Part shown: one piece after another, positions 34,680-64,000 of the stretch
Layout: each line of letters opens with the position of its first letter
Numbering within the stretch: the stretch's first letter is position 1
Source of the DNA: a virus
Lineage: Duplodnaviria > Heunggongvirae > Uroviricota > Caudoviricetes
Virus record (IMG/VR): IMGVR_UViG_2645727946_000002
Direction: 5' to 3' (one strand)
Length of the DNA stretch: 64,000 nucleotides
Position numbers and translations under genes: made by a program
Notes under the pieces: model-generated
Told to the model about the DNA's origin: nothing
The model's database searches: none
Seen by the model: only the letters and a program-made list of their open reading frames with translations

Positions 34680-34882
34680 AACACCTTCCGAGCGGTTCCG
34701 CTCGATTCTCGTAGATCCCCCGAGGCGCCTTATCTGGCGGCGTTTTGGGGGTGTCAATCCTCTTGTCCGTTCCGCCCCGTCCCGACACAATCTACCCATC
34801 GAATGGGGGTAAGTGAAGTGGTCAAGCAACGTTGGACACTGCTCCGGGATAGGCTGCGAGCGCTTCGAAACGCGCTGGCGGC

Positions 34883-45478: not shown

Positions 45479-45799
45479 TTGTGCGAAGTAAATCTGAGCC
45501 ACCTTTCAGTGCAGTCAACCTTTTGCGCGCAAAGGCCGGCGATGCTCCAGAAGGAACAGTGGATGCAAATCCATGTGCTCAAAGCCCAAGGCGTATCGGA
45601 GGGAGCGCGAGATCACGCGGCGCCTGGGCATTTCTCGCAACACGGGGGGCGCGGTACCTGTCGGCCGAGGAAGTGCCGCGCTACAAACCGCGTGAACCGC
45701 GACCAACCAGGCTCGGAGCGTTCGAGGCGTACATCCGGCGTCTGATCCGCGAGACTCGAATGGAGCCGTTTGCGGTTATACAGATCGATGTATTCGCCG
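45479..45799 (+). pseudogene. IS21-family IstA N-terminal fragment, frameshifted
   Basis: MLQKEQWMQIHVLKAQGVS… then continues in another frame as …REITRRLGISRNTGG…RYLSAEEVPRYKPREPRPTRLGAFEAYIRRLIRE. Confidence 0.5.
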
Positions 45800-46475
45800 A
45801 TGGAACGCCGGGCGCTGATTGAGGAGTCGCCGTCGTTCGGGTATCGGACGCTCGCGCATTTGCTTGGGTTCAACAAGAACACGGTGCAGCGAATCTTCCG
45901 ATTGATGGGCTGGCAGGTTCGGATGCGGCCGATTGGCTTTCGGCCTCGCGTACAAGCCATGCCGTCGGTGGCCACAGCGCCGAACGAACGCGGGTCGACC
46001 GATATGTGCCGCGTTTGGGCTGGGCGTGATGGGTGGGTGACGCTGGCGCGGGTGATCGATTGCCATACGCGGGAGTTGCTAGGCTGGCATTTGTCACGTA
46101 GCGGTAGGGCCAGCACAGCCTCGAGCGCGTTGGAGCATGCGCTGATCGCCCGGTTCGGCACACTCGGGCGTGTGCCTAAGCCGTTCCTGCTGAGAAGCGA
46201 CAACGGGCTAGTTTTCACCAGCCGCGACACACGGCTCTGGTACGCAGTTACGGTCTGCGGCAGGCGTTCATCACGCCGCACTGTCCGCAACAGAACGGAA
46301 TGGTCGAGCGCGTGATCCGCACGCTCAAAGAGCAATGCGTACACCGACACCGCTTCGAGACGCTGCAGCATGCCAGCCGCGCCATTGCCGACTGGGTCCA
46401 GTTTTACAACCATCGACGGCCTCATCAGGCGCTGAAGATGAAAACGCCGGCTGAGGCATTCGCGTTAGCCGCTTA
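45770..46475 (+). pseudogene. IS3-family transposase OrfB, frameshifted near 46250
   Basis: …GYRTLAHLLGFNKNTVQRIFRLMGW… and …RSDNGLVFTSR in one frame. C-terminal …AFITPHCPQQNGMVERVIRTLKEQ…YNHRRPHQALKMKTPAEAF in another. Confidence 0.6.
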
Positions 46476-46507: not shown

Positions 46508-47242
46508 CTACCTAGCCGGCGCGACGAAATTGAGCAGTACCGCAGCGGTCGTAAGCGGTTCGCCCATGAAGTAGATCGCCGTATAGATCTCGCCCGGCGA
46601 CAGCGTTACGCCCTCCATCACCACGCTGTCGTCAGTGACGTCTGCCGCGATCTTCACGCGTGCTACCGAGGCGGCCGCATTGTAAGGACTCGCGCGTCCT
46701 CGCCACAGTCCGACCCAGTTGCCTGCGGTCGCGGGCAGATAGCCCGACAACGTGTGGTACCGAAACGTAAGCGATGTCGCGCCGACCGACGCGAGCTGAA
46801 GCGTAACGGTGTCCACAACGCCCGTCGAGCCGTCGGCGGCGAGCAACGCCGATGCGCAAACGTCGTCGACTTCCGGCCCGACCGCATAGCCTACCGTGTA
46901 CGGCGTGGCGCTGATCGACACTCCGGTCATCACCACCGTTCCGAGTTCGGCGTCGGTCGGAATGCCGAGCCGTGCCGCGGGCGCGATCGACCACGGTACG
47001 ACGCTGCTTTGCCACAGCGCGACGAAGTCTCCATAGAGCTTCGGCTGATTCCCAGGCAGCCCCGCATAACTGACGTCGACGGTCGTGCCGGACGAGCCGG
47101 TAATGATCGCGGCGCACACGGACACCGTGGACGCTGCCGGCTGCGCGAGCGCCTGCGCCGCGGCGACGCCGGCGAGCAGGCCCCACAGGAGCGGCGCCGC
47201 GACGAACGCGCACAACGCGCGGTCGCGGCGCGCTAGCGGCAT
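46508..47242 (-). CDS. secreted tandem-repeat beta-domain protein (paralogue of 63308..64000), last gene of giant-protein operon
   Basis: ATG 47242 overlaps the giant-gene stop. Signal peptide MPLARRDRALCAFVAAPLLWGLLAGVAAAQA. Two about 100-aa repeats with …PGNQPKLYGDFVALWQ… and …AGNWVGLWRGRASPYN…. Confidence 0.6.
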   Translation of the reverse strand: MPLARRDRALCAFVAAPLLWGLLAGVAAAQALAQPAASTVSVCAAIITGSSGTTVDVSYAGLPGNQPKLYGDFVALWQSSVVPWSIAPAARLGIPTDAELGTVVMTGVSISATPYTVGYAVGPEVDDVCASALLAADGSTGVVDTVTLQLASVGATSLTFRYHTLSGYLPATAGNWVGLWRGRASPYNAAASVARVKIAADVTDDSVVMEGVTLSPGEIYTAIYFMGEPLTTAAVLLNFVAPAR

Positions 47243-50200
47243 GGCAGCGGCGGGACCACCTGCGCGATGGACAGCATCAATCGCCGCATCCGCAGCAACG
47301 GCATCGGCTGGCCGGTAAGATTCGACATCAGCGTCAGATCCATCCAGAGTGTTCCGCCGCCCGTCGGTTCGTATGTGGAGAACCACGTTTCGATCGCGGC
47401 AGTCCAGTCAGCGGTCATTTTCGCGATGGTGCCCGCGCCGGTTCCGGCGACGTCGACCGTCAGCGGCGCCTGCATCAACACCGGCAACACGATCTTATCG
47501 AGCGCGGCGTTCAGCGCATATCCGTATGTCACCTCCACCTGTGCGACGATCTGCGGCAGCGTGTCGCCGGCGAGCAGATAGGCAAAGAGCGCGTCGAAAT
47601 GCTCCTGAAGCGAACGCGTCACCGGCGTACCGGACGGGATCGCCGCCACATCGATGATCGCATTGGCGTCGTTGGTCGGATACAGCGGGCTGGCGAAGCG
47701 CACTTCGGGCGTCGTGTAGACAAACGCGTCAGCCGACGGTTTGCCCGGAACGAGTTCGCGGTTGCGCTCCACCCAGACGGTAGACCACGCGTCCTGGCGC
47801 TGCAGGATGTCGAGCGCGGGCAGCCGCACCGTACGGCCCGGAATGTTCTGCCCGTTCGCGGCGCTCAGGTATGAACCCTCCGGCCCGGGGCCGGCCTTGC
47901 GCTTGTACACGTAGTGGAAGACATCGCCGGCCTTCTGCGTGTCGCCAGGCGGCTGCCAAGGCTGCGCGTCGTACAGCGCCGGATCGATTTCGACGACCGG
48001 CTGACCCATTCCTGCCGGGACGGCGCCGACCAGCGTCACCACTAGCGCGCCTTCGGTATCGCCAACCTCGGCCGAGCCTTCTTCCTCATAGAACGCGAAG
48101 GTAAGCGACGGGTCGCCGGTGAGCAGTCGCGCCGGGGCCTGGAACGTGAGACCCGTGCCGCCGCGGCGCTCGCCATTGCCTTGCGTATTTCCGCCTGCCG
48201 CGTCGACCAGTTCGTCGACCAGTTGGATGAACGATTGCAGAGCGATCGATGCGTCGTCGATCTTTTGCTGGTCCGTCATCGGGTCGACCGTCGCATCGAT
48301 GCCGGCGAGGATGGTTTGCAGATCCGCGTTCACCTTCGGTAACACGGTAATGAACTCCGCGAGCTGCGCGAACGCATCCGGGAAGCTCGCGAACAAAGTC
48401 GGCGCGGTGCGTAGATTGAATTCGACCTCGCCGTAGATGCGGTCTTGCGGATAGTGGAACGGCAGCGAATAGGTGAACGCATAGTCCCACTGCTTGAGCA
48501 GGGGCAGGCTCGCGGTGTCGAGGTCATGGGTTGGGGTGCCGCTCTGCTCCGTCATCGCGGGGCTTGCCGGGAATGCGCGCAGCACCAGTGGCACCGCGAA
48601 GTTCCCGAGGTCCGCCGCGAGCGGCCCGTCAGTGTCCGGCACGACGAAGCTGAGCCAGGTCGATGCCTGGTAATCCTCGATACCCGGCAGCGCGCCGATC
48701 TGATGCTCGATCTGGCTGCCTTGGTACGTCATGTCCAGCTCGACATACGACACTATCTCGCCGCCCGCGCCGCGTACCGAATCCGGAGCGTTGACGAGAT
48801 ACGTGAGCGCGCGCGTATCGCCGGCCTGCAACGTAAGCTTCGGCGAACTGAACGCGAGCGTGCTGGCCGGCAGGCTCGCCGAGCCAGTCGTGACAGTGCG
48901 CGTGAGCGGCGGACGCACCGCGCGTCCCGTCGCGTCCTTCAGATTGCTGACGGTGACCGTCGTCTGTCCCGGCTGCACGTCCGTCGCGAGCGTGAGCGTC
49001 ACCGTGCCGCGGTCGACCGTCGCCGTCAGCACGCCGGCACCGCTGCTCAATGCGTAGTTTTCGATGTTGCCGGCGGTGACCGGGTCCATCGGGTCGCTGA
49101 ACAGCAGGAACACGGTGGTCAGTGCCTGTCCGTCGACATTGGCGGCCTCGAACACCGGTCCGTTCCGCGTGACCGGCCCAAACAGCCGCGGCGGCTGATC
49201 CGCGGCGGGCTCGATCACGTCGGCGGCCACGTTCGCATGGAACTCCACCGCGGCGCGCGTCGTATATGCGGCTGACAATCGCACCAGCAGTTGCTGGTAA
49301 AACGCTTCGCGCGCGGCGGACGGGTCGGAGGTTTCCCCCGCGAAGACCGGAATCATCCACAGCTTCGCGACCGTCGCGAGTCCCTTCTTGCCGTCGAGGA
49401 TCGACTGCAGATAATCAGCGGACTTCAACTCGCCGACGATCTGCATCGGCGCGGTGAATTGCGGTGTCAGCACGTCGTCGACGGCGGCGAACACCTGCGC
49501 GCACCACGTGTCGAGATCGACATCCGTGAAATCGGTGGTGCGTGACGGCGTCGACGAGATGCCCTTGCCGGTCGTGTAGTCGTAGATCGGTACTTGCGTG
49601 CGGCTGATTAACCGGTTGCTCGCCGGCTGCGGCGCGAACACGGCCGGGTTGCCCGCGTCGGCGATCGCATACGAGATCGCCTTGCCGGCAGCGAGCCCGA
49701 CGCGTACCGCCCAGACCGTGCTGGCCGCTCCAGTGGCGGGCGGCGCGGTGCGATCGACGCCGGTCGCCACCTTCAGCCGGACACTGCCCGGCGTCGACAG
49801 CGCCTGTTCGAAACCGGTCGCGAACGTAACGAGCCCGAGCGTGCCGCCGGTGGCGCCGAGCGCATCCTGCAGCGGCGCGACGCGCGTGCTCGCGCTGCGA
49901 ATGCCGGCGACCGTCTCCAGCCCCGGCAGCACCGGGCCGTGCGCGCGCGTCATCGTAAATGATGTCCACAGCGGGAAGATCTGCGCGGTGTTCACCTGCT
50001 GCGGTGGCACGTCCACGTCGAGCGGCAACCCGGCGGCGGGCGGCACGGCAACGCTCTGGAACTTCGAGCGGTCCAGCACGAACGCATAGACACTGGAGGC
50101 CGCGCCGGCTGTGCCGAACAGCCAGTCCATCAGCTTGTCGACGGCGGCCGGCGCATACGCGACGCTGCCCGGCGCTCCGTGCGCGCCCGCGAGCAACGAA

Positions 50201-53200
50201 GACTGCGCCGACAGATCGACTCCGGCGGGATCGGTGAGCTGGTAGTACAGCTGTGTATAGACGTGCAGGTCCTGCGACGCGTTCTGTTGCACGGTGCTGC
50301 TGCGCGTGACCGGATTGTCTGGCCAGTCGAACGACGCCTGCCCGCTGTAGCGCATGTCGCTCGCTTGCGCTTTGATATCAGTGGCGATCACTGTGTAGCG
50401 CAGGTCGTCGTCGAGCGCCGGCACCGTCAGCGTGACGGTTTTTCCATCCGCGGCCAGCGACGCCGAATCGACGGTTCCCGGCACCAGTTGCCAGCGCGAC
50501 AGTTCGCCGACCGATGCGGCGTCGAGCGCGTCCGTGAATACCACGGTGATCGTCGTCTGCGTCGCCGCCGATGCCTGCAGCAAGCCTTGGTAACGGCTCG
50601 GATCGAAGCTCAACTCGATATTCAGCCGCGGGTTCGCTCCGCCGCTGCCGGGCAGCACCTGCCAGTTCGAAGCAATCGACGGCCATTGCGACAGCGACAC
50701 CAGCGGATCCGTGTAGCCGGTGAGCAGCGGCGCGTCGTTGTACGGTGCCGCATCGCCGGCCAGTGGGTCCGACAGCGGCGTCGACAGCACGTTGCCGTAG
50801 TAGTCCTGCCACGCAAACGAGATCTGCAGTATGCCGCCGACACCAAAATACGGACTGGCGCTTGCGGGCGGCAGCGCGACCGCCGCGCGCGGCGCTTGCG
50901 GCACGTGCTTCGCAAAGCGTGCGTAAGGCAGCGCCTGACTGAAGTTCCACGCTTCGACCTGATCTGCCGGAACGACGGTGCGAACCTTGTCGTTGCCGTT
51001 TTCTTCCGGAGCCTTGGTTGTCGGTCCGGCGGGCAGCCCCGGCGGATCGCTCGGCCGGAAGTCGACGTTGCCGTATACCTGCTGGTTCAACAGGCTGAAG
51101 TTGTTCAGCAGCAGTTCCGTTCCGTAGTCCGGCGATGTACCGTCCACGTGCGGCGGCGCCGGACGCAGCGCGGCGAGCGCCTGCACGCCCGGCTGCACCG
51201 CAGCCGAGCGCACGCGCGGGCCGCCGGGAATCACGAGCGGCACGCCGGCCGCGAACAGCTGGGCCACCCGCGCGTTATGGGAAGCAAGCGCGTCGACCGG
51301 CTCGCCGTACCAGCCCGCGATATCCGCGAGCGACGCCGTGTGCGCGCTCGTGCCGGCAGTGAGCGTGAGGTCCGGTACGCGGATCGCGGCCGGGAACGGC
51401 AGTGGGTCGGGCAAGCCGCCCCACAGCGGATTGGCGTCGTTCAGCGCCTGCACCGTGGTGCCGAAGCGGCTCGCGACCTGCGCGAGCGCGATGCCGCCCG
51501 GCGGCGCCTGGTAGACCCCTTCGCTCACGCGCACGAGCGCGCCTGCGCGAAGCGCGACGTTCGCGTTGGCTTCCGCGATATCCGCCTCGTCCGAATACCA
51601 TTGCGCGGCGAGCGACGCGAGCGTCTCGCCAGTGCCGCTCGTGACGGTGGCGGGAACCGGCGCCGCTTCCGCGAACAGCACCGCGTTGCCGGTATCCAGC
51701 GCGTCGGTCGTCACCACCGCATTCATGTAATTCGTGACGCGGTCCTGATCGTCTACGGCCGCGGGCTTCGCGTACAGCACGATCAACGTCAGCGATGCCT
51801 CGTTGCGGTCGTTGAATATGCGATCGGGCAGCCCGCCTCCAGCGGCGCGATCGTAGTAGTACAGGAAGAAGCCGCCCGAGCGTGTGATGCTCGCTTCCCA
51901 CAGCAGCCGCACGAACTCCGACGGCGAATTGAGCAGCGTGAGCTGCGGCGTTTCGCCGGCCGTTTCACGCAGTGCCGCGAATGCGGCGCCGGCAGGCGGA
52001 CGGGTTTCCGTCGACAGGTTCACCTGCGCGATGCCGAACACGACGCTCGCCGCGCCGCCGGTCTGCACGCCTTCGCCGCCGCCCGTTGCGCTATCGGGTG
52101 CAAAACCGACGCTCAGGCCGAAGTAGGCCGAATCGTCCGCCTGCACCTGGCTCAACAGTTGTTCGAGCACCACGATTGCAGCGCCGCTCGCGCCGACCAC
52201 CTCGTACGTGTCGACGGACGCGGGACTGCCCGCTACCGGCGGAATGCGCCGCACCGTGAAGCCGATGGTCGACGCCCATCCGTACGAGTCCACCCCGGTG
52301 GTTTCGGTGGCGCCCGTCGCATCGTCGTAGCGGGCCACCCGCAGTGCAAAGCGCGGATTCACCGCATGGGTGGCCGGATCGGGAAGCGCCGCAAGCGCGC
52401 CCGGCAGTTGCCACACGCGCAGCGACTGCACGCCGGCCGGCGGCTGACCATAAGGCAGCGCGACGGTGTTCGTGCTCAGCCACTGCAACGCGGACGTGAA
52501 CGGATAGGTCGCGAGGGCGGTATCGTACATCTTGCCCGCGCCGAGCATATCCATCGGCACGACGAGCCGTGTCTTCGCGGCGGCGGTCACCTGCGCGATA
52601 CGCGTCGCGTCGGGCGTGCCGGGCGTGACCGATAGTGTCAGACGGTCGGTCGGGCCGCCGTTGCCGTCGACGAAGCGCAGCCACGACGAACCGGCGCCGG
52701 CCACGCTGTCGAAGGTCGCCGCGAACGGATCGGCGCCGAGTGCGGGCAGCGGGAATTGCTGACCGGTCAGCGCATAGAGCCCGGCTTGCGGCGGCAGCTT
52801 CAGCGTGCCGTTCACGTCATGCACCCACATGCCCATCTCGTTGGGCACGATCGACCATTGCCCGCCCGTGCCGGTCGGGCCGGACGTCGGGAAGCGCAGC
52901 CCGTGCATCGTATAGCTGCTCGCGATGCCGGACAGGTGCTGCAGCATGCCCGAGCGTTGCGCTTCGGCGAGCAGTTCGGCCAACGGAAATTGCGGCAGGT
53001 GCGGCAAGTCGAGCGTGTCGCCGGTGTCGAACAACCCGGCTACCGTGCCGTTGGCGGGCTGGTCTGCCAGCACCGAGACGGTCACGCCGAAGCGCGCCGC
53101 GACCTGCGCGAGATCGTCGCCTTGCTGCGTCGTGTAGCGGAACGCCGGAACCGTAAGCGACGCGACCGGCGCGAGCAGGCCGGGTTGCGTCAGCACCGCG

Positions 53201-56200: not shown

Positions 56201-59200
56201 GGCGACTCGAGCCCGAACTTCGAGTCGGTCGCCCACGACACCATCGTTTCGATCATCGAGCCGAGCGTCGTGTTCTGCTTGAAGCCGAGCGTCGCGGTCC
56301 AGTCCTGGGTCGTCGGGTCCGGTCCGTCGACCACACCTTCGAGCAGGCCCCACGTGATCCCGTATTGCTTGACCTTCGGGTTGTAGTCGAACCAGACGGT
56401 GAGGTCGATGTTCTGCCAGATCACTTCGAGGTCGAGCCTGCCGAATTTCCCCGGCACCTCTGCCTTCGCTCCCGCGTCGCCCATGCGCAGCTTCGCTGCG
56501 AGACTCACGTCCAGGAACGGCACAACCCAGTTGTCGGCGGTCTTGCCCGTGAACGCCCACGTCGAATCGGTGGGCGAGCTCGTGATCGTCAGCCCAAGCC
56601 CGTCGATCGCGTACTCCTGCCCTTGCGGGGCCTGCCACGTATTGCCGAGGTAATAAACGAGCAACGCGCCGAGGCTCACCACTCCGGACGTTTGCTGCGC
56701 GTCGAAGGTCCACGCCTTCGCGGCTGTCTTGTACGTAGCCGTGGTGGAGAGCCCGATCGGGCTCTCCGAGTTCGGCAGGACGATCAGCGAGCCGCCGAAG
56801 CTTCCTTCAATTTCAGTCTGCGTGCCGCCGGCGCCGTTGTTGCCGCCGGCATCCGCTTTCGGCGGATTGATATCGCGTGAAACGGCGTCGATCGCGAAGT
56901 TCAGGCCGGTGATCGTAAACAGCGCATTGGCGGCAGACGGCACCGGCCACTGCGCGGAGACGTCCATCGAGAAGCTGTACGCGCCCTGCGCCTGATCCAC
57001 GATGAAGCTCAATTGCTCGATCGCGGTGCTCGATACGCTCGCCGGAATGGCCGCGGCGAAATCGGCGCCCAGATACTCGGTGACGATAGCGGCGAGCGTG
57101 ATCGGCGGGCTGCCGTCGATCAAGCCGCCGGTCACGCGCAGCGCGGGCACGCGCGCCTCCAGTTGCGCGTGGCCGCCGGCGATGTCGAACCGGCCGCCGA
57201 TCACGTAGCGCGTGCTGCGCCGCTGCAGATCGCCGGGATAATCGGTCAGCGCGCTGAAGCTGAGCCCGGTAACCGTCACGCCGGGCACCAGTTGCCAGCT
57301 TCGATTCTCGGGTGTGCCGAGCGTGACGCCGATGTACTCCATCACGCCGTTCGCGTAGCTGTAGCGCAGCGCAAGGTTCTGCACCTCGATGTCGCTGAAG
57401 AACTGGATTTGCGATGGCAGCAGCGCCTGGATGTTGATGCCCCCGAGCATCTGAAAGATATTCGTGATGCTCGGTCGCGGCGCGAGAAATTCCGCTTGCA
57501 GCAGCAGGCGCCCCGGTTCGGACGGCAGCGTCAGCGACGCCTTCGCGGCGATCCCGGCCGTAAACGTCGCACCGACCGTGCCCGTCACGGGAACGGCCGC
57601 GTTGCTGTCGATGGCAAGCGCAAGCGACGGGTTGGCGACGCTGAGCCACTGCGCGCCCGGGAACGCCCAGACCGTGTCCGTAAACGCGCCGGACATCTTG
57701 CCCGCGATCGTCCCGCCGCTGTCGGTAAACGAGAACGCGAGCGTCAGGTTGCCTGCGCCGAACGCCTTCGACTTGCCTGTCAACGTGACTTCGGTTTTAT
57801 CGGCGTTGATTTCCGTCACCGTGTCGGTGATCGTGAACACGACGTCGATCACGACTTGCCTGAAGAACTCGTTCAGGATGCCGTCGGTAACCGCCAGCAG
57901 AAAATCGAGCACACCGTCGACCGTGTGACTCGTCAGATCCTCGTAGAACGCTTCGAGCAGCGCACTTGCGCCGTTCGTGTCGCCGCCTGCGACACGTGTC
58001 GGCGGCTTGCGGTGCGCGATGCGCGCGGGCGCCCGTGCGGTGGCGCCGGCCTCGTGAACAGGCGCGTTCGCGTCGTCCAGCTCGGCATGCGCGAGCGCGA
58101 GTCGGTGCTCCTCGAGCGCCGCCGGCCCGATCAGATTGACGAACAGATCGAGGCCGCGCAGCAGCTTGTCGTTCAGCTCGTCGTGAAAAAACGTACGCTG
58201 CGCCGCGAAGTAAGTCGCACGGGCGTTTCCGGCCGGCTGCACATACGCGTTGATCATCGCCGGCAGTTGCGTCGGCGGATAGGTCGGGCGATCTCTGTAC
58301 CAGTTGTCGGGACGCGTGAAGTAAATGCCGTTGAACGACTCGTCGAGCGAATTGGTCGCGTCGGTGCCCGCGCCGGTGGAACTGAGCGGCAGCGTCGCGT
58401 AGCTGAATCGCGCATCCGCTTCGCGACTGTTATTGCTCGTGATCTTGAAGTACGGCTTGCCGAGATTGAGCATCAGTTCGGCGGTATTCTGCCCTTCCAG
58501 CACCGGTGGCAAAGTCGCGCTCGCATAAAGCGCATCGAACAGCGGCGCCGGAATTTTGCCGATGTAGACCACCAGCAGTTGATCGTCCTTGAGATACGAC
58601 AGCTCTTCGTCGAGCTGCTCAACTGTGGGTACGCTATTCGGGCTGCCGAGATCCTGGACCCGGTCTTTGACCTTATTCTCCTCGTTCCAGCCCCGGAAAT
58701 CAGGCGTCGTCCTGATCTTGTTTACCATCTGGCCGGCCGGGTCCCGCATCAAAAACAGGAACGCTTCCCACTCGGAGGCCGTGAGGGTCGTGATCTGAAC
58801 CATCACCGTCTTTTTGACGGCGGGATGTGTGTTCTGCGCGATCAACGCGCCGGTGACCGCGTTGTACAGCGACGTATAGGCGCTCCCTTTCGTCGTGACG
58901 CCGTAGACGGGAAAAAGCGTGATCTCGCCTGCTCGCCGTCGTTCGAGCAGACGCTCGATCACGAGCGCCTTGTTCGCGTACGGCGTTTGTGCAATCGCCT
59001 CTCGGTCCGACTGCGTCAGCTCGGGATCGGCGAGATAGAACGCGCGCCGCGCAAGCAGCGTGGTCGGATTCAGCTCATCGAGGTTGTATTCGCTCGCCGT
59101 GCCACCGGGCGGCTTGATCCGGACCATATTGGTCCCGCGATTCCACGCATACGGCTGAAGCTGAACGTAGTTGGTCACATTCAGCAGGTGATACGGCGGC

Positions 59201-59628
59201 GTCTTGTTCTCGAGATCGTCAAAACCGCCGCTGATCGCGAATTGCGCGGGCGCCAGCGCTTTATCGAGCCGCACGACGGTGACATCGGCGCTCTGCCCGC
59301 CGGCACCCAGTTCAAACGTGACGCCGACCTGCCGGAACTGCGGAATCAGCAAGCGGATCTTTTCTTCCAGGTCCGCGTAGTCGGCGGAGTTGGATGCGGA
59401 CAGCGCGAATGTATACGGCCCCGGCGCACCCATGCGAATCAGGTTGCGCAGGATATTGACCGACGACGATTGATGTCCGAAGTTCTGACTGTTCGCGGTG
59501 AAAACGCGTATCTCGTCAAGCGCATTCAGATAGTCCCGGACTTTCGTGATGCGTGCACCGAGATGAACCGTGAGGACGTTCTGCGTTCCCTGCGACAACC
59601 GTTCGATGACGTCATTCAGTCCAGCCAC
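47233..59628 (-). CDS. giant (4131 aa) protein with central block of LysM-like repeats; function unknown
   Basis: Uninterrupted 12.4-kb ORF, GTG start overlapping the upstream gene by 17 nt. At least 7 LysM-like motifs (e.g. YTVQPRDTLGDVANAFGVTVSDLL, YTTQQGDDLAQVAARFGVTVSVLA). No N-terminal Sec signal. No RHS/YD, haemagglutinin or RTX repeats. Confidence 0.85.
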   Translation of the reverse strand: MAGLNDVIERLSQGTQNVLTVHLGARITKVRDYLNALDEIRVFTANSQNFGHQSSSVNILRNLIRMGAPGPYTFALSASNSADYADLEEKIRLLIPQFRQVGVTFELGAGGQSADVTVVRLDKALAPAQFAISGGFDDLENKTPPYHLLNVTNYVQLQPYAWNRGTNMVRIKPPGGTASEYNLDELNPTTLLARRAFYLADPELTQSDREAIAQTPYANKALVIERLLERRRAGEITLFPVYGVTTKGSAYTSLYNAVTGALIAQNTHPAVKKTVMVQITTLTASEWEAFLFLMRDPAGQMVNKIRTTPDFRGWNEENKVKDRVQDLGSPNSVPTVEQLDEELSYLKDDQLLVVYIGKIPAPLFDALYASATLPPVLEGQNTAELMLNLGKPYFKITSNNSREADARFSYATLPLSSTGAGTDATNSLDESFNGIYFTRPDNWYRDRPTYPPTQLPAMINAYVQPAGNARATYFAAQRTFFHDELNDKLLRGLDLFVNLIGPAALEEHRLALAHAELDDANAPVHEAGATARAPARIAHRKPPTRVAGGDTNGASALLEAFYEDLTSHTVDGVLDFLLAVTDGILNEFFRQVVIDVVFTITDTVTEINADKTEVTLTGKSKAFGAGNLTLAFSFTDSGGTIAGKMSGAFTDTVWAFPGAQWLSVANPSLALAIDSNAAVPVTGTVGATFTAGIAAKASLTLPSEPGRLLLQAEFLAPRPSITNIFQMLGGINIQALLPSQIQFFSDIEVQNLALRYSYANGVMEYIGVTLGTPENRSWQLVPGVTVTGLSFSALTDYPGDLQRRSTRYVIGGRFDIAGGHAQLEARVPALRVTGGLIDGSPPITLAAIVTEYLGADFAAAIPASVSSTAIEQLSFIVDQAQGAYSFSMDVSAQWPVPSAANALFTITGLNFAIDAVSRDINPPKADAGGNNGAGGTQTEIEGSFGGSLIVLPNSESPIGLSTTATYKTAAKAWTFDAQQTSGVVSLGALLVYYLGNTWQAPQGQEYAIDGLGLTITSSPTDSTWAFTGKTADNWVVPFLDVSLAAKLRMGDAGAKAEVPGKFGRLDLEVIWQNIDLTVWFDYNPKVKQYGITWGLLEGVVDGPDPTTQDWTATLGFKQNTTLGSMIETMVSWATDSKFGLESPWSFLNAIPLSNLALKYTFNQTTPSRNKVSFAVTIGPINLGFARIDSIDVGYQSTGEDRGVMVTLNGSFFWQSDPSTPLEWDASKPGTAPAPPGNGNKYLDLRLLAMGQHITLPCFATADTVQKAIACMATLPDPKPGQIPAVRFDAQSAWLIGTDFGVLKIDSGQTGNNANALRVTNDGNSLAESSGYVLTLQAVFNDPHLYGLRIALDGAAAKVFKGLDFQIMYRQVSDTVGVYQAEITLPDLMRHLTVGAYSLTLPVFGIAVYTNGDFQVDIGFPWNENFSRSFTIEAIIPPGIPVLGSAGFYFGKLSSASTNRVPASSYGTFNPVLVFGFGMQVGFGKSIEYGILSAGFSVTVVGILEGILAKWNPYQLTHSGREPSTQLQGDYYFWLRGTVGIVGRVYGSVDFAIVKANVDITVKLLLQLTYESYVSITITVIASVDVSVSVKINLGLFKISISFSFSMRLKETFTIDNRGAAPWLGDGRNVRGVLRLPVERRLSGFARAQARDSLLVSAPNWGNLRPDGVTDLSGYLVPGLTAARDEWTPQGEPANQLSCWVALLLIESVPPAGQDAGASKLKAAGSAPDSSFEALAKMVLRWAIAAVQGPMTPDEVDRCPVPATLLDWLADEVLVSTGDDPTPIPLDAVQAFLDTHFRFNLRVPPTDQDASADTAYFPAPPQLRVMIPPYGNDYPGVQYTLGSYNALGENTLAELRAWFDQLAVQVEREQAANGAAARAFVEEAPLSMAGWMFSDYFLLLARQMVKAAQDALRDFKYALDANETPDDVVSWVNTTGQLNELYTLNDVFGANALHALVAEKTLTIGVTSSISLAKTGQTFTSLAKAFDDALPASAIASANAADAALLQPGATITYPGFDPYTSVAGDTLVSIAAHYQAKLNDLLADSDVLDAAGMLRIGASALMPYTAYTALATDTFASIAALPVYAGGFGAAALATANAGRSVLLEGVKIEYPDKDAYTVQPRDTLGDVANAFGVTVSDLLATSAVLTQPGLLAPVASLTVPAFRYTTQQGDDLAQVAARFGVTVSVLADQPANGTVAGLFDTGDTLDLPHLPQFPLAELLAEAQRSGMLQHLSGIASSYTMHGLRFPTSGPTGTGGQWSIVPNEMGMWVHDVNGTLKLPPQAGLYALTGQQFPLPALGADPFAATFDSVAGAGSSWLRFVDGNGGPTDRLTLSVTPGTPDATRIAQVTAAAKTRLVVPMDMLGAGKMYDTALATYPFTSALQWLSTNTVALPYGQPPAGVQSLRVWQLPGALAALPDPATHAVNPRFALRVARYDDATGATETTGVDSYGWASTIGFTVRRIPPVAGSPASVDTYEVVGASGAAIVVLEQLLSQVQADDSAYFGLSVGFAPDSATGGGEGVQTGGAASVVFGIAQVNLSTETRPPAGAAFAALRETAGETPQLTLLNSPSEFVRLLWEASITRSGGFFLYYYDRAAGGGLPDRIFNDRNEASLTLIVLYAKPAAVDDQDRVTNYMNAVVTTDALDTGNAVLFAEAAPVPATVTSGTGETLASLAAQWYSDEADIAEANANVALRAGALVRVSEGVYQAPPGGIALAQVASRFGTTVQALNDANPLWGGLPDPLPFPAAIRVPDLTLTAGTSAHTASLADIAGWYGEPVDALASHNARVAQLFAAGVPLVIPGGPRVRSAAVQPGVQALAALRPAPPHVDGTSPDYGTELLLNNFSLLNQQVYGNVDFRPSDPPGLPAGPTTKAPEENGNDKVRTVVPADQVEAWNFSQALPYARFAKHVPQAPRAAVALPPASASPYFGVGGILQISFAWQDYYGNVLSTPLSDPLAGDAAPYNDAPLLTGYTDPLVSLSQWPSIASNWQVLPGSGGANPRLNIELSFDPSRYQGLLQASAATQTTITVVFTDALDAASVGELSRWQLVPGTVDSASLAADGKTVTLTVPALDDDLRYTVIATDIKAQASDMRYSGQASFDWPDNPVTRSSTVQQNASQDLHVYTQLYYQLTDPAGVDLSAQSSLLAGAHGAPGSVAYAPAAVDKLMDWLFGTAGAASSVYAFVLDRSKFQSVAVPPAAGLPLDVDVPPQQVNTAQIFPLWTSFTMTRAHGPVLPGLETVAGIRSASTRVAPLQDALGATGGTLGLVTFATGFEQALSTPGSVRLKVATGVDRTAPPATGAASTVWAVRVGLAAGKAISYAIADAGNPAVFAPQPASNRLISRTQVPIYDYTTGKGISSTPSRTTDFTDVDLDTWCAQVFAAVDDVLTPQFTAPMQIVGELKSADYLQSILDGKKGLATVAKLWMIPVFAGETSDPSAAREAFYQQLLVRLSAAYTTRAAVEFHANVAADVIEPAADQPPRLFGPVTRNGPVFEAANVDGQALTTVFLLFSDPMDPVTAGNIENYALSSGAGVLTATVDRGTVTLTLATDVQPGQTTVTVSNLKDATGRAVRPPLTRTVTTGSASLPASTLAFSSPKLTLQAGDTRALTYLVNAPDSVRGAGGEIVSYVELDMTYQGSQIEHQIGALPGIEDYQASTWLSFVVPDTDGPLAADLGNFAVPLVLRAFPASPAMTEQSGTPTHDLDTASLPLLKQWDYAFTYSLPFHYPQDRIYGEVEFNLRTAPTLFASFPDAFAQLAEFITVLPKVNADLQTILAGIDATVDPMTDQQKIDDASIALQSFIQLVDELVDAAGGNTQGNGERRGGTGLTFQAPARLLTGDPSLTFAFYEEEGSAEVGDTEGALVVTLVGAVPAGMGQPVVEIDPALYDAQPWQPPGDTQKAGDVFHYVYKRKAGPGPEGSYLSAANGQNIPGRTVRLPALDILQRQDAWSTVWVERNRELVPGKPSADAFVYTTPEVRFASPLYPTNDANAIIDVAAIPSGTPVTRSLQEHFDALFAYLLAGDTLPQIVAQVEVTYGYALNAALDKIVLPVLMQAPLTVDVAGTGAGTIAKMTADWTAAIETWFSTYEPTGGGTLWMDLTLMSNLTGQPMPLLRMRRLMLSIAQVVPPLPCR

Positions 59629-62600
59629 GAGCTTTCCCCAGAAGTCGGGCCGACTTTGAGCGGGAAGCCGGCGTGTTGTTGTACATCGCGTACCACCCGA
59701 GCCCCGATGCCTTGCCTTCGCTTTGCGGATTGCCGAACAGATAGAAGAGCGTCGAGCCGCTCGGCGGAATCTTGAGCAGCCCCATGAACTTGAGCGCGAT
59801 CTCGGTGAGCATCAGCAGAAACGAGCGCTTGTCGCGGTCATAGGTGAGCCACATCTGTCCGATCGAAAGCCGCAGCACGTTCTGCAGGCTGATCAGATTC
59901 GCGCCCCCGCCGGTACCCGGCAGTTGGATGCCCAGCGATGCGCGGTAGCGTCCCGCGTCAGCGCTCACGGGGGCCCATGCGGTGAGCAGGCCGGAGGTCA
60001 GCCCGATCGTTCCGGCTAGATTTCCGGGCGTGCCCATGTTCAACTGATAGGCAAGTCCGTACCAGCGGTCGCCGTTGACGCCGGTCAACGTCGCGTCGGT
60101 GACGACGTTCAGGAATCCGTCGGCCTCCGGCGACGTTTGTGCGCTCCCTTGAACGAGTCCTTGCAGGCCGAGCGCGAAATTCACGAACAGGCTGTCCGGG
60201 CGCGGCGTGCTGGTCTGCATATCGAAGCGTATCTCCGACGCGGAGAAGGCGAACGCGATCGTCGCCGGGTCGGCCACAGGGAAGGTCATCCGCACGCCGA
60301 GGTTCGAGTACGCGAGTCCGCGCCGCAACTGGTCCTCGCCGGCATGACTGCCGAAGGAGAGAATGTCGAACGCGCCGCTGCTGTCGTTTGCCTGCACGAC
60401 GGCGAAGTCGAGAAAGCCGGACAGCGCGAACCACGACACGATCTGACCGTTCGCGCCGCTGTCGCGCGTAGACATCTGCGCGCTGTCCACTTCGATTTTC
60501 GTGAACAGGTTGTTGTCGAAGTAGAACGTGCTAGTCGCGGTGGTGCCGAGGCTGTAGACCGCGCGACCGCCGTTGTCCTGGTAGCTGCCTCGCAGCACCA
60601 GCGTCGCGTACGGGTTGCCGCCTTCCCCCATGCTCACCACGGGCATATCGAACAGACTGTTGAGCGTGAGCTGCGCATAGCTCTGGAAGCGTTGCACGGC
60701 TGTGTTCTCGAACAGCGCCTTCAGCGTGAGCACGCGAAACTGGTAGTCGGTGCCCGCCGTCGGCGGCACCGGCCGCGGATCGATGCCGGGCGGCGGCGCT
60801 ATATAAGCCGGGTCCACGTAGTAGATCAGCCCGAACATCGAACTGCTCGTCGTGAGCGCGATATCGGGCGCAGCGGGATCGTTTGCGATTTGGCTGATCT
60901 CGATGCCGAAGTGGTGCGCATTGAACAGCTCGGGTGCCTGCACGCCTGCGACGATGCCGACCAGATCGTCGGGAATCGAGCTGATCTTCATCCGCAGGAA
61001 GAGAATGCCGGTCCACGCGGGATCTTTTGCGATCGTGTTGAACTTCGCGAAATATTCGGGCTCCGCCTGATCCAGCGCATCCTGGAAGTAGCGCTGCAGC
61101 CAGTACGAAAGCGCGGTCAGCTCGTCCGGGTTCGGCGCGGCGACAGTTTCGTCGGGCGGCGGCGCAGGGTTCGGTACGAGGTCGCTCGGCGCGGCGAACA
61201 CGTCTTTTTGCGTCCACATGTCGGGACTCGCGACGAGGCTGGCGGCCGGGTTCTGCGGGTCCCACAGCGGGCCGCGGCGTCCCTTCACGATCATCACATC
61301 GGCGTAGTCGTCGTAGCGGTTGTTCTGTCCGACCGCCGCTTCGAACGACCAGTCGCCGACGTTGATCCGGTTCGCGAATGTCGCGGACGGACCGCATGCG
61401 CCGCTGCCGTCCGCCGAGAACGCGCCGAGGTGCGCCGCATTGGCCGCGACAAGAAACAGATCGCTGGTCGCGAACGCCTGTTGCAGTTCGGCACCGGGGT
61501 TGCAAAAGCTCATTTGCCGAAGCGTCGGCGACAGGTTTTGCCCCAGCAGGATCTTGCTCCATTGGCCGGCGGCATCGACGGTGACGAGCAGGCCCGACGG
61601 AGTCGTCGTGTTGTACGGCGTGGCCGTGGCCATATCGGCAAGCTTCAGCGCATGCGCCTTCGATGAAGCCACGCCGGCGCCGCCGTCGGCAATGCGTCGG
61701 CGGCGCGTCGGCGAAACCACTTGGCGCTCGAAGTCCGCCATCCGCTCGGCGGTGAGCGCCGTCACGCCGTCTCCAGCCGATGCGCCCGCGTACGGGACCA
61801 TCGGAAACGCGGACGACGGAAGCGTCACTGACGGGGTCATCGGCCCGAACAGTGTTTTCTCGCCGAGCGAATGGATTAACGCATCGCGACCGTATAGCGC
61901 GGCTCCCTTCGGCTGCGCGACGTAAGCGGCCGCACCCGGCGCGCCGGGTGCGCGCGCGACGGTTCCCCATGAGGACGTATAAGTCGCGTCGAGCAGCGGC
62001 GCGTTCACGTCCACCGGCGCGCCTACCGGCGACACCTCGGTGAACGGATAACGCGGCGCGTAGGCGGGCGAGCGCGCGGTAAACCGCAGCCGGTCGCCGG
62101 CATAGCCGCCATCGACAAAAGGCTGGAATGCGACGAACTCCGTGCCCTGCAGGCCGCAGATCAGATCATACGTTCCACCGTCGCTCGGCCCGTGCGCATG
62201 GATCACGAAGTCGCCTTCGGGCGCGATCTGGAAATCGTGATTGCCTTTGTCGTCGGGGGCGCCCGCATTGAAGAGAAAGCGCGCGGCATCGGGCTGCGTG
62301 TCCAGCGGGCCCGCAACCGGCGCGAGCGTCAGCAGTTCGCCGTAGGTGGTCGCGTAACATGACGAGAGCACCGTCGCGGAGCCGTCCTGATTCTGTCCGG
62401 TGAAGACGAGGACGCTGCGATCCGCCGCGATGGCGTGCGCATTCCACGGATCGCTCGGGTCGTAACTCGCATCGAAGCCGAGCATGTCGCCCGGATTCGG
62501 CAGATGACCGAATGCGAGCGGCAGCCACTCGCCGATCGCACTGCGTACCGGGTCGTCGTGCGGGATCTGGAACTGGAAGCCCCAGTTCCAGCCGTCATGA

Positions 62601-63175
62601 AGAAACTGGCGCTGTAAAAAGACCGGGAAGCGGATGCAACCGCGCGCCGCGCCGGACAATGGAAGCGTGCCGGCCGGGATCTGGCTTGCCTGGGGGGCGC
62701 CGGGTGCCGACGCACCGCTGAAGAAAATGCCGTTAGCGGTTCCCAACCGAAGGGTGTCGCCGTCGAGCTGCAGCGTCACGCCGGCGCGCACATTGAGCGA
62801 GAGTGTCTCGAAGATCGGCGCTTGCAGCGCATTCGACACGTAGCTGCCGTCCGCGGCGATACCCATCAACGGCACGCTGGAAATCGTCGGCGCGGTGGGG
62901 TCCATCAGCCACAGAAAACCGCGGTCGGCCGGCGAGCGGGCAATGACCTGATCCACGGCGCCGATGAACGCGTCGAGCAACGGCGTTGTCGAGAGCAAGG
63001 GCGCGGTGAAAGAAAACAGGAACGAGCCAGGCAACTGCTTCAACGCGAGATCGAGGTCGATTTCTTCGGTAGACGGCGACGGGCGCGGGAGCAGGTAGGC
63101 AAGCCATCCCGCATCGCCGGATGCGACCGGGCCGATATAGAGCCGCGATCCCTCAAACTGCGTGAAGAAGCTCAT
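59612..63175 (-). CDS. large (about 1190 aa) protein of unknown function, co-operonic with giant LysM protein
   Basis: ORF 59612..63190. ATG at 63175 is the likely start (GTG at 63190 also possible). Stop overlaps the giant-gene start. Confidence 0.8.
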   Translation of the reverse strand: MSFFTQFEGSRLYIGPVASGDAGWLAYLLPRPSPSTEEIDLDLALKQLPGSFLFSFTAPLLSTTPLLDAFIGAVDQVIARSPADRGFLWLMDPTAPTISSVPLMGIAADGSYVSNALQAPIFETLSLNVRAGVTLQLDGDTLRLGTANGIFFSGASAPGAPQASQIPAGTLPLSGAARGCIRFPVFLQRQFLHDGWNWGFQFQIPHDDPVRSAIGEWLPLAFGHLPNPGDMLGFDASYDPSDPWNAHAIAADRSVLVFTGQNQDGSATVLSSCYATTYGELLTLAPVAGPLDTQPDAARFLFNAGAPDDKGNHDFQIAPEGDFVIHAHGPSDGGTYDLICGLQGTEFVAFQPFVDGGYAGDRLRFTARSPAYAPRYPFTEVSPVGAPVDVNAPLLDATYTSSWGTVARAPGAPGAAAYVAQPKGAALYGRDALIHSLGEKTLFGPMTPSVTLPSSAFPMVPYAGASAGDGVTALTAERMADFERQVVSPTRRRRIADGGAGVASSKAHALKLADMATATPYNTTTPSGLLVTVDAAGQWSKILLGQNLSPTLRQMSFCNPGAELQQAFATSDLFLVAANAAHLGAFSADGSGACGPSATFANRINVGDWSFEAAVGQNNRYDDYADVMIVKGRRGPLWDPQNPAASLVASPDMWTQKDVFAAPSDLVPNPAPPPDETVAAPNPDELTALSYWLQRYFQDALDQAEPEYFAKFNTIAKDPAWTGILFLRMKISSIPDDLVGIVAGVQAPELFNAHHFGIEISQIANDPAAPDIALTTSSSMFGLIYYVDPAYIAPPPGIDPRPVPPTAGTDYQFRVLTLKALFENTAVQRFQSYAQLTLNSLFDMPVVSMGEGGNPYATLVLRGSYQDNGGRAVYSLGTTATSTFYFDNNLFTKIEVDSAQMSTRDSGANGQIVSWFALSGFLDFAVVQANDSSGAFDILSFGSHAGEDQLRRGLAYSNLGVRMTFPVADPATIAFAFSASEIRFDMQTSTPRPDSLFVNFALGLQGLVQGSAQTSPEADGFLNVVTDATLTGVNGDRWYGLAYQLNMGTPGNLAGTIGLTSGLLTAWAPVSADAGRYRASLGIQLPGTGGGANLISLQNVLRLSIGQMWLTYDRDKRSFLLMLTEIALKFMGLLKIPPSGSTLFYLFGNPQSEGKASGLGWYAMYNNTPASRSKSARLLGKARGWTE

Positions 63176-63307
63176 GAGATCGCCCCGCACTGGATGATCT
63201 ATTTCTATTCTGCGTCCGGGCGAGCAGGGAACGCTTCCCGGACGCAGTTGATCCGGCGCAGGTATTGTCCGGCGCGTTAAGACTCACCCCGGCGCGCCGT
63301 CGCACGT

Positions 63308-64000
63308 TTAGCCCACGAAGGTCGTGCTGGCTGCGAGCGTGGTCTGCTTCGGGTTGCTCTGCGCGTAACCGCCCTTGAAGTAACCCAGCGTGTACGTGAC
63401 GCCGCGCTGAATATTTCCGCTGGACAGATTGATCCCGAAGTTGCCCGCGTTGTTATTGCTCCCGAGTTGTACGAACCAGGTGGCCGGCATGTTGTAAAGC
63501 ACTGCCTCGGTTTGGCCTTGCCACAACCCCACCCAGTCGCCGTCGGCTTGCGGTGTCATTCCCGCCGGCATCGCGTAGGAGAACGACACCGACGTCGAGC
63601 CTTTGTTGGTGACGAGGATCGACGGAGCCTGCACCGGGTCGTACGGAGGCTGGTTACTGTCCGTAGAGGGGACGAACACTGCGGCGACGATATTCTTGAC
63701 CGAATTCCCCACCGCGAATGCGACCAGGTACGACTCGCTGCTCACCGAGAGCCCCTGGAATATGCTGGAGCCATTCGGCTGGTTGTTCTGGACGATCTGC
63801 GAGTGGGCCGGCTGGGTGCTGACCGGAATAAATACCTGCGACGTCTGCCAGATGAAAACCGTGTTGCCGTACGCGTTGGGCTGATTGCCCGGCATCGTGT
63901 CGTAGCGGTACGTGATCTGCGTTCCGGTGACATCTTCCGGTTTGATCGTGAAGCTGGTGACGAGTGCCTGTTGAGACGGCGCATTGAGCTCTTTCGCCAT
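63308..64000 (-). CDS. tandem-repeat beta-domain protein (paralogue of 46508..47242); may extend beyond window
   Basis: …YDTMPGNQPNAYGNTVFIWQTSQ… and …DGDWVGLWQGQTEAVLYN… mirror the motifs of the 46508..47242 product. ATG at the window edge. Confidence 0.55.
   Translation of the reverse strand: MAKELNAPSQQALVTSFTIKPEDVTGTQITYRYDTMPGNQPNAYGNTVFIWQTSQVFIPVSTQPAHSQIVQNNQPNGSSIFQGLSVSSESYLVAFAVGNSVKNIVAAVFVPSTDSNQPPYDPVQAPSILVTNKGSTSVSFSYAMPAGMTPQADGDWVGLWQGQTEAVLYNMPATWFVQLGSNNNAGNFGINLSSGNIQRGVTYTLGYFKGGYAQSNPKQTTLAASTTFVG

What the first reader, a model, noticed from the sequence alone, without database searches (positions are those of the whole stretch)
46508..64000. Uncharacterised four-gene operon around a 4131-aa LysM-repeat giant protein
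Four co-directional minus-strand genes fill the last 17.5 kb. A 230-aa protein sits at 64000..63308, followed by a 117-nt gap. A roughly 1190-aa protein sits at 63175..59612. The 4131-aa giant gene at 59628..47233 has its GTG start inside the upstream gene, overlapping it by 17 nt. A 244-aa protein at 47242..46508 has its ATG overlapping the giant gene's stop. The giant protein has no N-terminal signal peptide and no RHS/YD, RTX, haemagglutinin or Ig-like repeat signatures. Its central part carries at least seven LysM-like peptidoglycan/chitin-binding motifs of the form Y-T-x-x-x-GD-T/D-L-x-x-V/I-A-x-x-F/Y-G-V-T-V. The two small proteins at opposite ends of the operon are paralogues. Each has two about 100-aa repeats carrying PGNQP-x-YG-x-V-x-W-Q and G-(D/N)-W-V-G-L-W-x-G motifs, and only the distal one has a Sec signal. 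This architecture is not Tc, MARTX, two-partner-secretion, eCIS or T6SS-like.
Basis: partly seen in the sequence, partly recalled or inferred. Interest (0 to 1): 0.8.

Follow-up and report, generated by a model that had tools for sequence, protein, structure and literature searches.

The report
Widespread uncharacterised giant LysM-protein gene module
The four genes are real and form the Burkholderia pseudomallei copy of a horizontally spread, never-described gene module (small beta-proteins, a 1,190-residue protein of unknown fold, and a 4,000-residue LysM giant with a porin-like core) found from Bacteroidota to methanogenic archaea, whose function is unknown but looks most like a glycan-binding, membrane-active weapon.

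Summary
Four co-directional minus-strand genes (A1 230 aa, B 1187 aa, giant 4131 aa, A2 244 aa) sit at the stated coordinates with the stated overlaps. The organism is B. pseudomallei.

The module B+giant recurs in 81 of 83 fetched loci and at least 147 species: Proteobacteria, Bacteroidota, Acidobacteria, Firmicutes, Actinobacteria, Cyanobacteria, Chloroflexi and Methanosarcina. About 1,200 cluster representatives match in metagenomes. No secretion or ATPase gene is conserved beside it.

Pfam, NCBIfam, PADLOC, PHROGs and PDB sequence searches recognise only LysM, in two arrays of about 7 and 3 units, plus a weak Big_5 domain. A confident AlphaFold model of B (pLDDT 88.8) has no relative in PDB or BFVD.

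The giant's N-terminal 560-aa head is exchangeable. In one clade it is replaced by separate EEP-family enzyme genes. Diderm hosts often carry one exported and one non-exported small paralogue.

Best guess (about 0.3): a glycan-binding, membrane-active toxin or delivery complex. I found no literature on it.

The parts
63308..64000 (-). A1: 230-aa small protein with two ~100-aa beta-type repeats (motifs PGNQP-x-YGN-x-V-x-W-Q and GDWVGLWQG) and no signal peptide. It is the first gene of the operon.
   Evidence: family of 39 clusters; no Pfam or PDB hit
63210..63247 (-). Inverted repeat CTGCGTCCGGG-N16-CCCGGACGCAG in the A1-B intergenic spacer. It may be an mRNA stem-loop that sets the A1:B expression ratio (inference only).
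   Evidence: read directly from the sequence
59612..63175 (-). B: 1187-aa, mostly beta protein that always partners the giant. 40-63% identical across phyla. Fold without a known relative.
47233..59628 (-). Giant: 4131-aa protein (GTG start, 17-nt overlap with B) with no signal peptide.
57949..59628 (-). Giant aa 1-560: exchangeable N-terminal 'head'. It has enzyme-like invariant polar residues (GHQ 51-53, GGxD 134-137, FEGQ 377-380, K488). In some genomes it is a separate ORF; in one clade EEP-family genes take its place.
   Evidence: no Pfam or PDB hit
56089..57948 (-). Giant aa ~560-1180: beta-repeat region (internal duplication 654-899 / 778-1039).
53779..56088 (-). Giant aa ~1180-1950: hyper-conserved core (56-74% identity across phyla at aa 1351-1600), ending in a helical subdomain. 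It is retained even in the 2102-aa Lysinibacillus mini-variant.
54787..55233 (-). Giant aa 1466-1614: six 18-23-residue strands forming three long amphipathic beta-hairpins. Most have one strongly hydrophobic face (75-100% in four of the six strands) and one polar face. This stretch contains the giant's strongest TM-like segment (aa 1489-1508).
52891..53886 (-). Giant aa 1915-2246: first LysM array (~7 units).
51193..51651 (-). Giant aa 2660-2812: second, more degenerate LysM array (~3 units).
50365..50568 (-). Giant aa 3021-3088: Big_5 Ig-like domain, an accessory insert that is not conserved in most homologues.
47236..51192 (-). Giant aa 2813-4131: conserved C-terminal body (30-50% identity) with no recognisable domain apart from the Big_5 inserts.
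46508..47242 (-). A2: 244-aa paralogue of A1 with an N-terminal Sec/Tat-type signal (aa ~1-36; nt 47135-47242). Its ATG overlaps the giant's stop by 10 nt.

Best explanation
The four genes are one operon. It is the B. pseudomallei copy of a self-contained, horizontally mobile module made of three parts:
(i) One or two small all-beta 'A' proteins. In diderm hosts one of them is typically exported.
(ii) B, a 1,190-aa beta-rich protein.
(iii) A ~4,000-aa giant.

I think the products assemble into a very large extracellular complex used against other organisms. The two LysM arrays would dock it on GlcNAc polymers (peptidoglycan or chitin) of a target. The hyper-conserved amphipathic, porin-like beta core, possibly together with B, would insert into or span a membrane. 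The exchangeable enzyme-like head would be the active or delivered part; this head is the giant's first 560 aa here and separate EEP-family enzymes in another clade. The A proteins would act as chaperone, assembly or immunity factors on both sides of the producer's inner membrane.

Shown: the gene set, its conservation and spread, the LysM arrays, the modular head, the barrel-like amphipathic core, and the lack of any known fold for B.

Inferred: that the proteins form a complex, that the complex is extracellular, membrane insertion, toxicity, the role of A, and the export route. The export route is unknown. It could be lysis-type release as for Tc toxins, or a route provided by B itself.
For: Operon structure: overlapping or coupled genes.

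Co-occurrence: B plus giant in 81 of 83 loci. The only other recurrent families are the small proteins and the head/EEP module.

Spread: at least 147 species, including Methanosarcina, and 1,199 cluster representatives. Copies lie on plasmids, including the conjugative pBRH02. The nearest non-Burkholderia relatives of the B. pseudomallei core are Acidobacteria, Clostridium and Nonomuraea, not other Proteobacteria. Together these indicate horizontal transfer, which is typical of weapons.

LysM: the LysM arrays match glycan-binding LysM proteins. They are kept in a methanogen, which (from general knowledge, not tested here) has no peptidoglycan (Pfam 40.1 bits). This points to a foreign glycan as the ligand; the same logic is used in PMC12352652.

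Head: it is sometimes a separate gene, it is absent from some giants, and a clade has 1-3 tandem EEP genes instead (PF03372, 30.1 bits against a cut-off of 24.5). It has invariant H/E/D/K residues, whereas the rest of the giant has no invariant His or Cys.

Small proteins: an exported plus a non-exported copy occur in 13 of 36 A-type loci and 26 of 28 EEP-type loci, all in diderm hosts. No exported copy (hydrophobicity heuristic) was seen in the monoderm or archaeal loci.
Against: There is no experimental datum of any kind. There is no signal peptide on B or the giant, and no conserved secretion, lysis or ATPase gene nearby.

Core identity of 56-74% across phyla is unusually high for a toxin. 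The C-terminus is conserved rather than polymorphic.

The hydrophobic faces of the long strands span 18-23 residues, longer than a bilayer needs, and are highly conserved. They could instead be a buried protein core or a lipid-binding groove. I could not inspect the coordinates to see which face points inward.

The enzymatic nature of the head is unproven: no Pfam or PDB hit even at E<=10. The resemblance of its motifs to GT-B/EarP glycosyltransferases is only my recollection.
Confidence: 0.3

Rival explanations
1. The complex is a structural or adhesive part of the producer's own envelope. The giant would be anchored to the cell's own peptidoglycan by its LysM arrays. The barrel-like core would sit in a membrane. 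The exported A paralogue would be a periplasmic or lipoprotein partner, comparable to OmpM/SlpA-type PG-tethered barrels or to inverse autotransporters.
Against: The giant and B have no signal peptide. The module also occurs in monoderms (Clostridium, Nonomuraea, Lysinibacillus) and in Methanosarcina, which lack an outer membrane or peptidoglycan. Its distribution is sporadic and horizontally transferred rather than lineage-wide. There is no link to BAM, TAM or secretion genes.
Confidence: 0.2
2. It is an intracellular conflict system, either anti-phage defence or another abortive-infection-type system. The giant and B would be a sensor or scaffold, and the head or EEP enzyme would be the effector.
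For: The distribution across Bacteria and Archaea is sporadic and horizontally transferred. Neighbours are often mobile or defence-like: JetA/Zeta/SHOCT in Clostridium, AAA_21+RloB in Chitinophaga, and in this window a C5-methylase, HATPase_c_3+Hypoth_Ymh, integrases, IS remnants and a prophage. EEP-family (nuclease-type) genes occur in one clade.
Against: PADLOC gave no hit. No NTPase, nuclease or sensor domain was found in the B. pseudomallei type. About 10 LysM units and an exported paralogue make no sense inside the cell. No neighbouring defence gene is conserved across loci.
Confidence: 0.1
3. It is a bridge-like lipid or hydrophobic-cargo transfer device. The long amphipathic sheets would form a hydrophobic groove, as in AsmA/TamB/VPS13-type or MTP-type proteins, and LysM would fix it to the wall.
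Confidence: 0.08

Closest known systems
Tc (ABC) toxin complexes of Photorhabdus/Yersinia
   Same: Multi-subunit, megadalton-scale, horizontally spread gene cassette. No signal peptides and no dedicated classical secretion system. A large translocation and receptor-binding subunit plus partners. In Yen-Tc, chitin-directed accessory modules.
   Different: No TcA (VRP1/TcdA_TcdB_pore), TcB/TcC RHS-cocoon or SpvB signatures. The putative membrane element is beta rather than an alpha-helical channel. The enzyme module is N-terminal or separately encoded, not a C-terminal HVR. The module is also found in archaea.
Large clostridial glucosylating toxins (TcdA/TcdB)
   Same: The order of parts is analogous: an N-terminal enzyme-like head, then a conserved hydrophobic delivery region, then glycan-binding repeats.
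   Different: No sequence or Pfam relation. About twice the size. Needs the partner proteins B and A. LysM instead of CROPs. No recognisable autoprotease: no invariant Cys or His.
Inverse autotransporters (intimin/invasin) and PG-tethered barrels (OmpM, Deinococcus SlpA)
   Different: No signal peptide, no IAT_beta domain, and a different domain order. The module occurs in organisms without an outer membrane.
Beta-barrel pore-forming toxins (aerolysin/haemolysin/anthrax PA type)
   Same: Long Ser/Thr-rich amphipathic beta-hairpins that could line an oligomeric barrel.
   Different: No sequence or fold match to any beta-PFT family. The hairpins are longer and far more conserved. The protein is 10-40 times larger.
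LysM-domain proteins (PF01476)
   Same: True membership for the repeat arrays: Pfam 71.8 bits. The best PDB matches are Thermus P60_2LysM, Ecp6, LytE and YaaH.
   Different: LysM makes up under 12% of the giant. The remaining ~3,650 residues, B and both A proteins match nothing apart from a weak 68-residue Big_5 hit.

Membership tests
LysM domain family (PF01476) | Sequence match to the LysM profile above the curated cut-off | tested here: met
   71.8 bits against a cut-off of 20.9; PDB LysM proteins at E down to 3.8e-10 with the family profile; 11 of 13 diverse homologues match
LysM domain family (PF01476) | Binding of GlcNAc-containing glycans (peptidoglycan/chitin) | not testable with these tools
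   Needs pull-down or ITC with the purified arrays
Tc toxin complex (TcA/TcB/TcC) | TcA pore/VRP1 domains; TcB-TcC RHS/YD cocoon with SpvB and a C-terminal HVR | tested here: not met
   No such Pfam or NCBIfam hit in any of the four proteins or in 13 diverse giants
Large clostridial toxins / MARTX | TcdA_TcdB glucosyltransferase, cysteine protease domain, TcdA_TcdB_pore; or RTX/MARTX repeats | tested here: not met
   No Pfam hit; no invariant Cys or His in the conserved body
Two-partner secretion / autotransporters / inverse autotransporters | N-terminal signal peptide; TPS (Haemagg_act) domain with a POTRA/ShlB partner; or an autotransporter or IAT_beta barrel domain | tested here: not met
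   No hydrophobic N-terminus on the giant or B; no such Pfam domains. The barrel-like fold similarity is generic.
Polymorphic toxin systems (Rhs/CDI type) | Conserved N-terminal trafficking part with a hypervariable C-terminal toxin and a cognate downstream immunity gene | tested here: not met
   The C-terminal 1,300 aa are conserved to the last residues. The variable module is N-terminal.
eCIS / T6SS / phage-tail-like | Sheath, tube, baseplate and ATPase genes in the cluster | tested here: not met
   Only three or four gene families recur around the module. PHROGs matches only the LysM part. The nearby prophage (window 1-17 kb) is separate.
Known anti-phage defence systems | Match to a PADLOC-DB model | tested here: not met
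   0 families for all four proteins
GT-B glycosyltransferases (e.g. EarP-like), for the head (giant aa 1-560) | Two Rossmann-like halves; nucleotide-sugar binding motif; profile or fold match | tested here: inconclusive
   The motifs GHQ and FEGQGT...G.PY recall GT-B enzymes, but this is my recollection only. There is no Pfam hit at E<=10 in 22 members and no PDB profile hit.
Endonuclease/exonuclease/phosphatase family (PF03372), variant clade only | Profile match above the cut-off | tested here: met
   L044 protein scores 30.1 bits against a cut-off of 24.5; L045 scores 18.8 bits. The B. pseudomallei head is not homologous to it (hhalign probability 1%).

The most novel reading that the evidence does not exclude
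The module encodes a new class of self-sufficient protein nanomachine shared by Bacteria and Archaea. B and the giant's hyper-conserved beta core would build a large beta-barrel-type conduit that exports itself without any known secretion system. The machine would dock on peptidoglycan or chitin through LysM and deliver interchangeable enzyme heads (GT-like or EEP) into target cells. The paired exported and non-exported small proteins would be compartment-specific immunity or assembly factors. That would make it a previously unrecognised secretion and toxin-delivery system.
Probability: 0.2. Interest if true: 0.92.

Novelty: categorically new. Interest (0 to 1): 0.8.

Why it matters
About 17.5 kb of chromosome 2 of the pathogen B. 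pseudomallei, present in hundreds of isolates, encodes roughly 5,800 residues of strongly conserved protein. Apart from the LysM repeats and a weak Big_5 hit, none of it matches a described family, fold or system.

The same module occurs in well over a hundred species from at least eight bacterial phyla and in methanogenic archaea, and about 1,200 sequence clusters match in metagenomes. It is therefore a large blind spot rather than an orphan.

A 1,190-residue protein modelled with high confidence yet with no relative in PDB or among viral models, together with a core that is 56-74% identical across domains of life, implies a tightly constrained machine.

If it is a weapon or delivery device, it would add a new mechanism of inter-organism antagonism, a possible virulence or environmental-fitness factor of B. 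pseudomallei, and a modular scaffold with exchangeable enzyme heads. If it is an envelope structure or a lipid bridge, it would be equally new. Either way it can now be tested directly in tractable hosts such as Chitinophaga, Chryseobacterium, Pedobacter and Azospirillum.

Tried and rejected
Searches that led nowhere:
- Pfam, NCBIfam, PADLOC and PHROGs on all four proteins gave only LysM and Big_5.
- PDB sequence and profile searches for the giant, B, the head, the A family and the EEP protein gave only LysM proteins.
- Pfam at E<=10 on 22 head sequences gave nothing consistent, so the GT-B/EarP idea is unsupported.
- Six literature searches found no description. The only trace is BPSS0409, a 'hypothetical protein' rich in homoplastic SNPs (PMC8865643), which I only presume to be the giant.

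Homology ideas rejected:
- The head is not homologous to the EEP proteins (hhalign probability 1%).
- B is not homologous to any part of the giant (probability 0.1%).

Context ideas rejected:
- Part of the prophage: rejected. The lambda-like structural genes lie at window 0.4-17 kb and are separated from the cluster by host and IS genes. The only 'viral' hits are B. pseudomallei prophage-boundary contigs.
- A fifth operon gene upstream of A1: rejected. The 141-aa ORF in B. pseudomallei and the 121-aa ORF in strain FERM BP-3421 are unrelated.
- Adjacent secretion genes beyond position 64000: none found.

Technical failures:
- The whole-giant word-index search timed out. A 1200-aa piece found only fragments, because that database seems to lack giant-length entries.
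- The afdb50 library was unavailable.


Full report
**1. Observation.**
The minus strand of window 46508-64000 carries four consecutive ORFs exactly as described (translations).
- A1 is 63308-64000, 230 aa. It is complete, because 230-aa homologues cover 100% of it.
- B is 59612-63175 from the ATG, 1187 aa. A GTG at 63190 would give 1192 aa, but homologue N-termini support the ATG.
- The giant is 47233-59628, 4131 aa, starting at a GTG 17 nt inside B. Homologues start at the equivalent residue.
- A2 is 46508-47242, 244 aa. Its ATG overlaps the giant's stop by 10 nt.

A1 and A2 are paralogues (32% identity, E=2e-25) with weak internal duplication. Only A2 has an N-terminal hydrophobic signal, at aa 8-33.

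Profile self-comparison resolves two LysM arrays, aa 1915-2246 (about 7 units) and aa 2660-2812 (about 3 units), plus an internal duplication at aa 654-1039.

**2. Identity and context.**
B is 99% identical to a B. pseudomallei protein cluster with 887 member sequences. These include K96243 CAH37865.1 / UniProt Q63N86 on chromosome 2.

The rest of the window is unrelated to the cluster:
- a lambda-like prophage at 0.4-17 kb;
- a low-GC island with integrases, a C5-methylase and an HATPase_c_3/Hypoth_Ymh gene at 24-37 kb;
- host genes, and a transposase remnant directly downstream of A2.

Beyond position 64000, a B. pseudomallei contig shows a non-conserved 141-aa ORF, then divergent genes, a TPP enzyme, YjbF/YjbH and a polysaccharide exporter. 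There is no secretion system.

**3. The module elsewhere.**
The same four genes lie on plasmid p1 of Burkholderia sp. FERM BP-3421, with different flanks.

A scan of one genome per species with the giant's aa 700-1900 found relatives in 147 species. These include Acidobacteria, Clostridium, Nonomuraea, Spirochaetes, Cyanobacteria, Chloroflexia and many Bacteroidota. They also include Rhodopseudomonas palustris BisB18 and three Methanosarcina. An exhaustive HMMER search found 1,199 cluster representatives, 869 of them at E<=1e-30.

In 83 loci, B precedes the giant in 81. All-against-all clustering of flank ORFs found only four recurrent real families: the giant, B, the small proteins, and a 440-490-aa protein between B and the giant in one clade.

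Both small genes normally lie upstream of B. The A2-downstream position is peculiar to Burkholderia.

Copies also occur on plasmids of Azospirillum, Mycetohabitans rhizoxinica (conjugative pBRH02, giant split into 1114 + 2614 aa), Paenibacillus, Nostoc, Tistrella and Embleya. Lysinibacillus carries a mini-variant whose 2102-aa giant starts at B. pseudomallei residue ~1237 and lacks LysM.

The B. pseudomallei core is closer to the Acidobacteria, Clostridium and Nonomuraea copies (48-52%) than to other Proteobacteria (34-41%). That indicates horizontal transfer.

Occasional splits of B or the giant exist, but intact ORFs dominate.

**4. Anatomy of the giant.**
Conservation against 33 full-length homologues and natural split points define these parts:
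- a head, aa 1-560;
- a beta-repeat region, aa 560-1180;
- a core, aa 1180-1950, with 56-74% identity at aa 1351-1600;
- LysM array 1;
- a middle body;
- LysM array 2;
- a conserved C-terminal body running to the last residue.

Only LysM and Big_5 are recognised in 13 diverse giants or by a whole-family profile against PDB.

The conserved body has no invariant His or Cys, so it looks structural. The head has invariant GHQ, GGxD, FEGQ and K, which is an enzyme-like pattern. However, it has no Pfam or PDB match.

The head is a separate ORF in some genomes (L008, L010, L079, L083) and is absent from about 10 of the best-matching giants. In the Chryseobacterium/Tenacibaculum/Pedobacter clade, 1-3 tandem EEP-family genes take its place (PF03372, 30.1 bits). 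These are not homologous to the head.

**5. Structures.**

The giant's aa 778-1960 gave pLDDT 78.4 and pTM 0.46. The model contains many up-and-down strands, including six strands of 18-23 residues at aa 1466-1614. Most of these have one strongly hydrophobic face and one polar face. This stretch is followed by a helical subdomain.

**6. Small proteins.**
The A family consists of a ~100-aa unit carrying a YGN-x-V-x-W motif. In the B. pseudomallei type the unit is tandemly duplicated. Other clades have single-domain versions.

Using a hydrophobicity heuristic, 13 of 36 A-type loci and 26 of 28 EEP-type loci carry one exported copy (often with a lipobox) and one non-exported copy. All of these loci are in diderm hosts. 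The Clostridium, Nonomuraea, Actinomycetota and Methanosarcina loci have only non-exported copies.

**7. Interpretation.**
LysM arrays retained in an archaeon that, to my knowledge, has no peptidoglycan argue that the ligand is a foreign glycan. PMC12352652 applies the same reasoning to archaeal PG-binding proteins.

Four features point the same way:
- a barrel-like amphipathic core;
- an exchangeable enzyme module;
- a sporadic, horizontally transferred distribution;
- compartment-specific small partners.

On this basis the most economical model is a glycan-binding, membrane-active toxin or delivery complex (confidence about 0.3).

The main obstacles are these:
- There is no export route.
- The conservation is extreme for a toxin.
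- The hydrophobic faces might be buried or might bind lipid.

The rival models are an own-envelope structural or adhesive complex (0.2), an intracellular defence system (0.1) and a lipid bridge (0.08). The remaining probability is 'something else'.

**8. Novelty.**
No curated family, defence model, phage family, solved structure or paper covers B, A, the head or the non-LysM parts of the giant (a weak Big_5 domain aside). The only literature trace is BPSS0409, a 'hypothetical protein' with many homoplastic SNPs, listed alongside PKS genes (PMC8865643). I presume, but did not verify, that this is the giant. I therefore rate the module as lying outside every described kind of system, with its function still open.

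Noticed in passing
window 415-16610 (+): Structural genes of a lambda-like siphovirus prophage: prohead protease S78, major capsid, 1366-aa tape measure, tail assembly protein I, and tip attachment protein J. IMG/VR contigs from B. pseudomallei end inside the giant gene, so their prophage boundary calls overrun into the cluster.
   Followed up: partly
window 21399-22517 (+): A 372-aa protein with a strong TsiV domain (type VI immunity against VRR-NUC effectors, E=3.5e-63) sits just after the prophage tail genes. It could be a phage-borne orphan immunity gene.
   Followed up: no
window ~24000-37000: A low-GC island (0.49-0.58 against ~0.6-0.68 in most of the window). It holds a tyrosine-integrase-like gene, a C5 DNA methylase next to an HATPase_c_3 + Hypoth_Ymh gene (a restriction- or defence-like pair), IS transposases, and an SPFH-rve fusion ORF.
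   Followed up: partly
window 45613-46425 (-): A transposase (rve_3) remnant lies immediately downstream of A2. It may relate to the Burkholderia-specific relocation of the A2 gene to the 3' end of the operon.
   Followed up: no
window 63210-63247 (-): An 11-bp-stem inverted repeat (CTGCGTCCGGG-N16-CCCGGACGCAG) lies in the A1-B spacer with no T-tract. It could be an mRNA stabiliser or attenuator that raises A1 relative to B.
   Followed up: no
L081 3511-7794 and L082 ~3600-7794: In two Bacteroidota/Kapaibacterium MAGs the EEP-family gene between B and the giant is present in at least two clear tandem copies (possibly three). This suggests diversification of the enzyme module.
   Followed up: partly
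L089 16583-27089 (Lysinibacillus fusiformis plasmid): A minimal variant of the module: a 284-aa protein, a 1100-aa B-like protein and a 2102-aa giant. The giant lacks the head, the beta-repeat region and LysM. This variant defines the smallest conserved core, and it sits next to an integrase.
   Followed up: partly
giant aa 4100-4131 (window 47236-47331): The extreme C-terminus (…PMPLLRMRRLMLSIAQVVPPLPCR) is conserved as a P-M-P-L-L…L-x-L motif in diverse homologues. It could be a C-terminal recognition or secretion signal or an assembly element.
   Followed up: no
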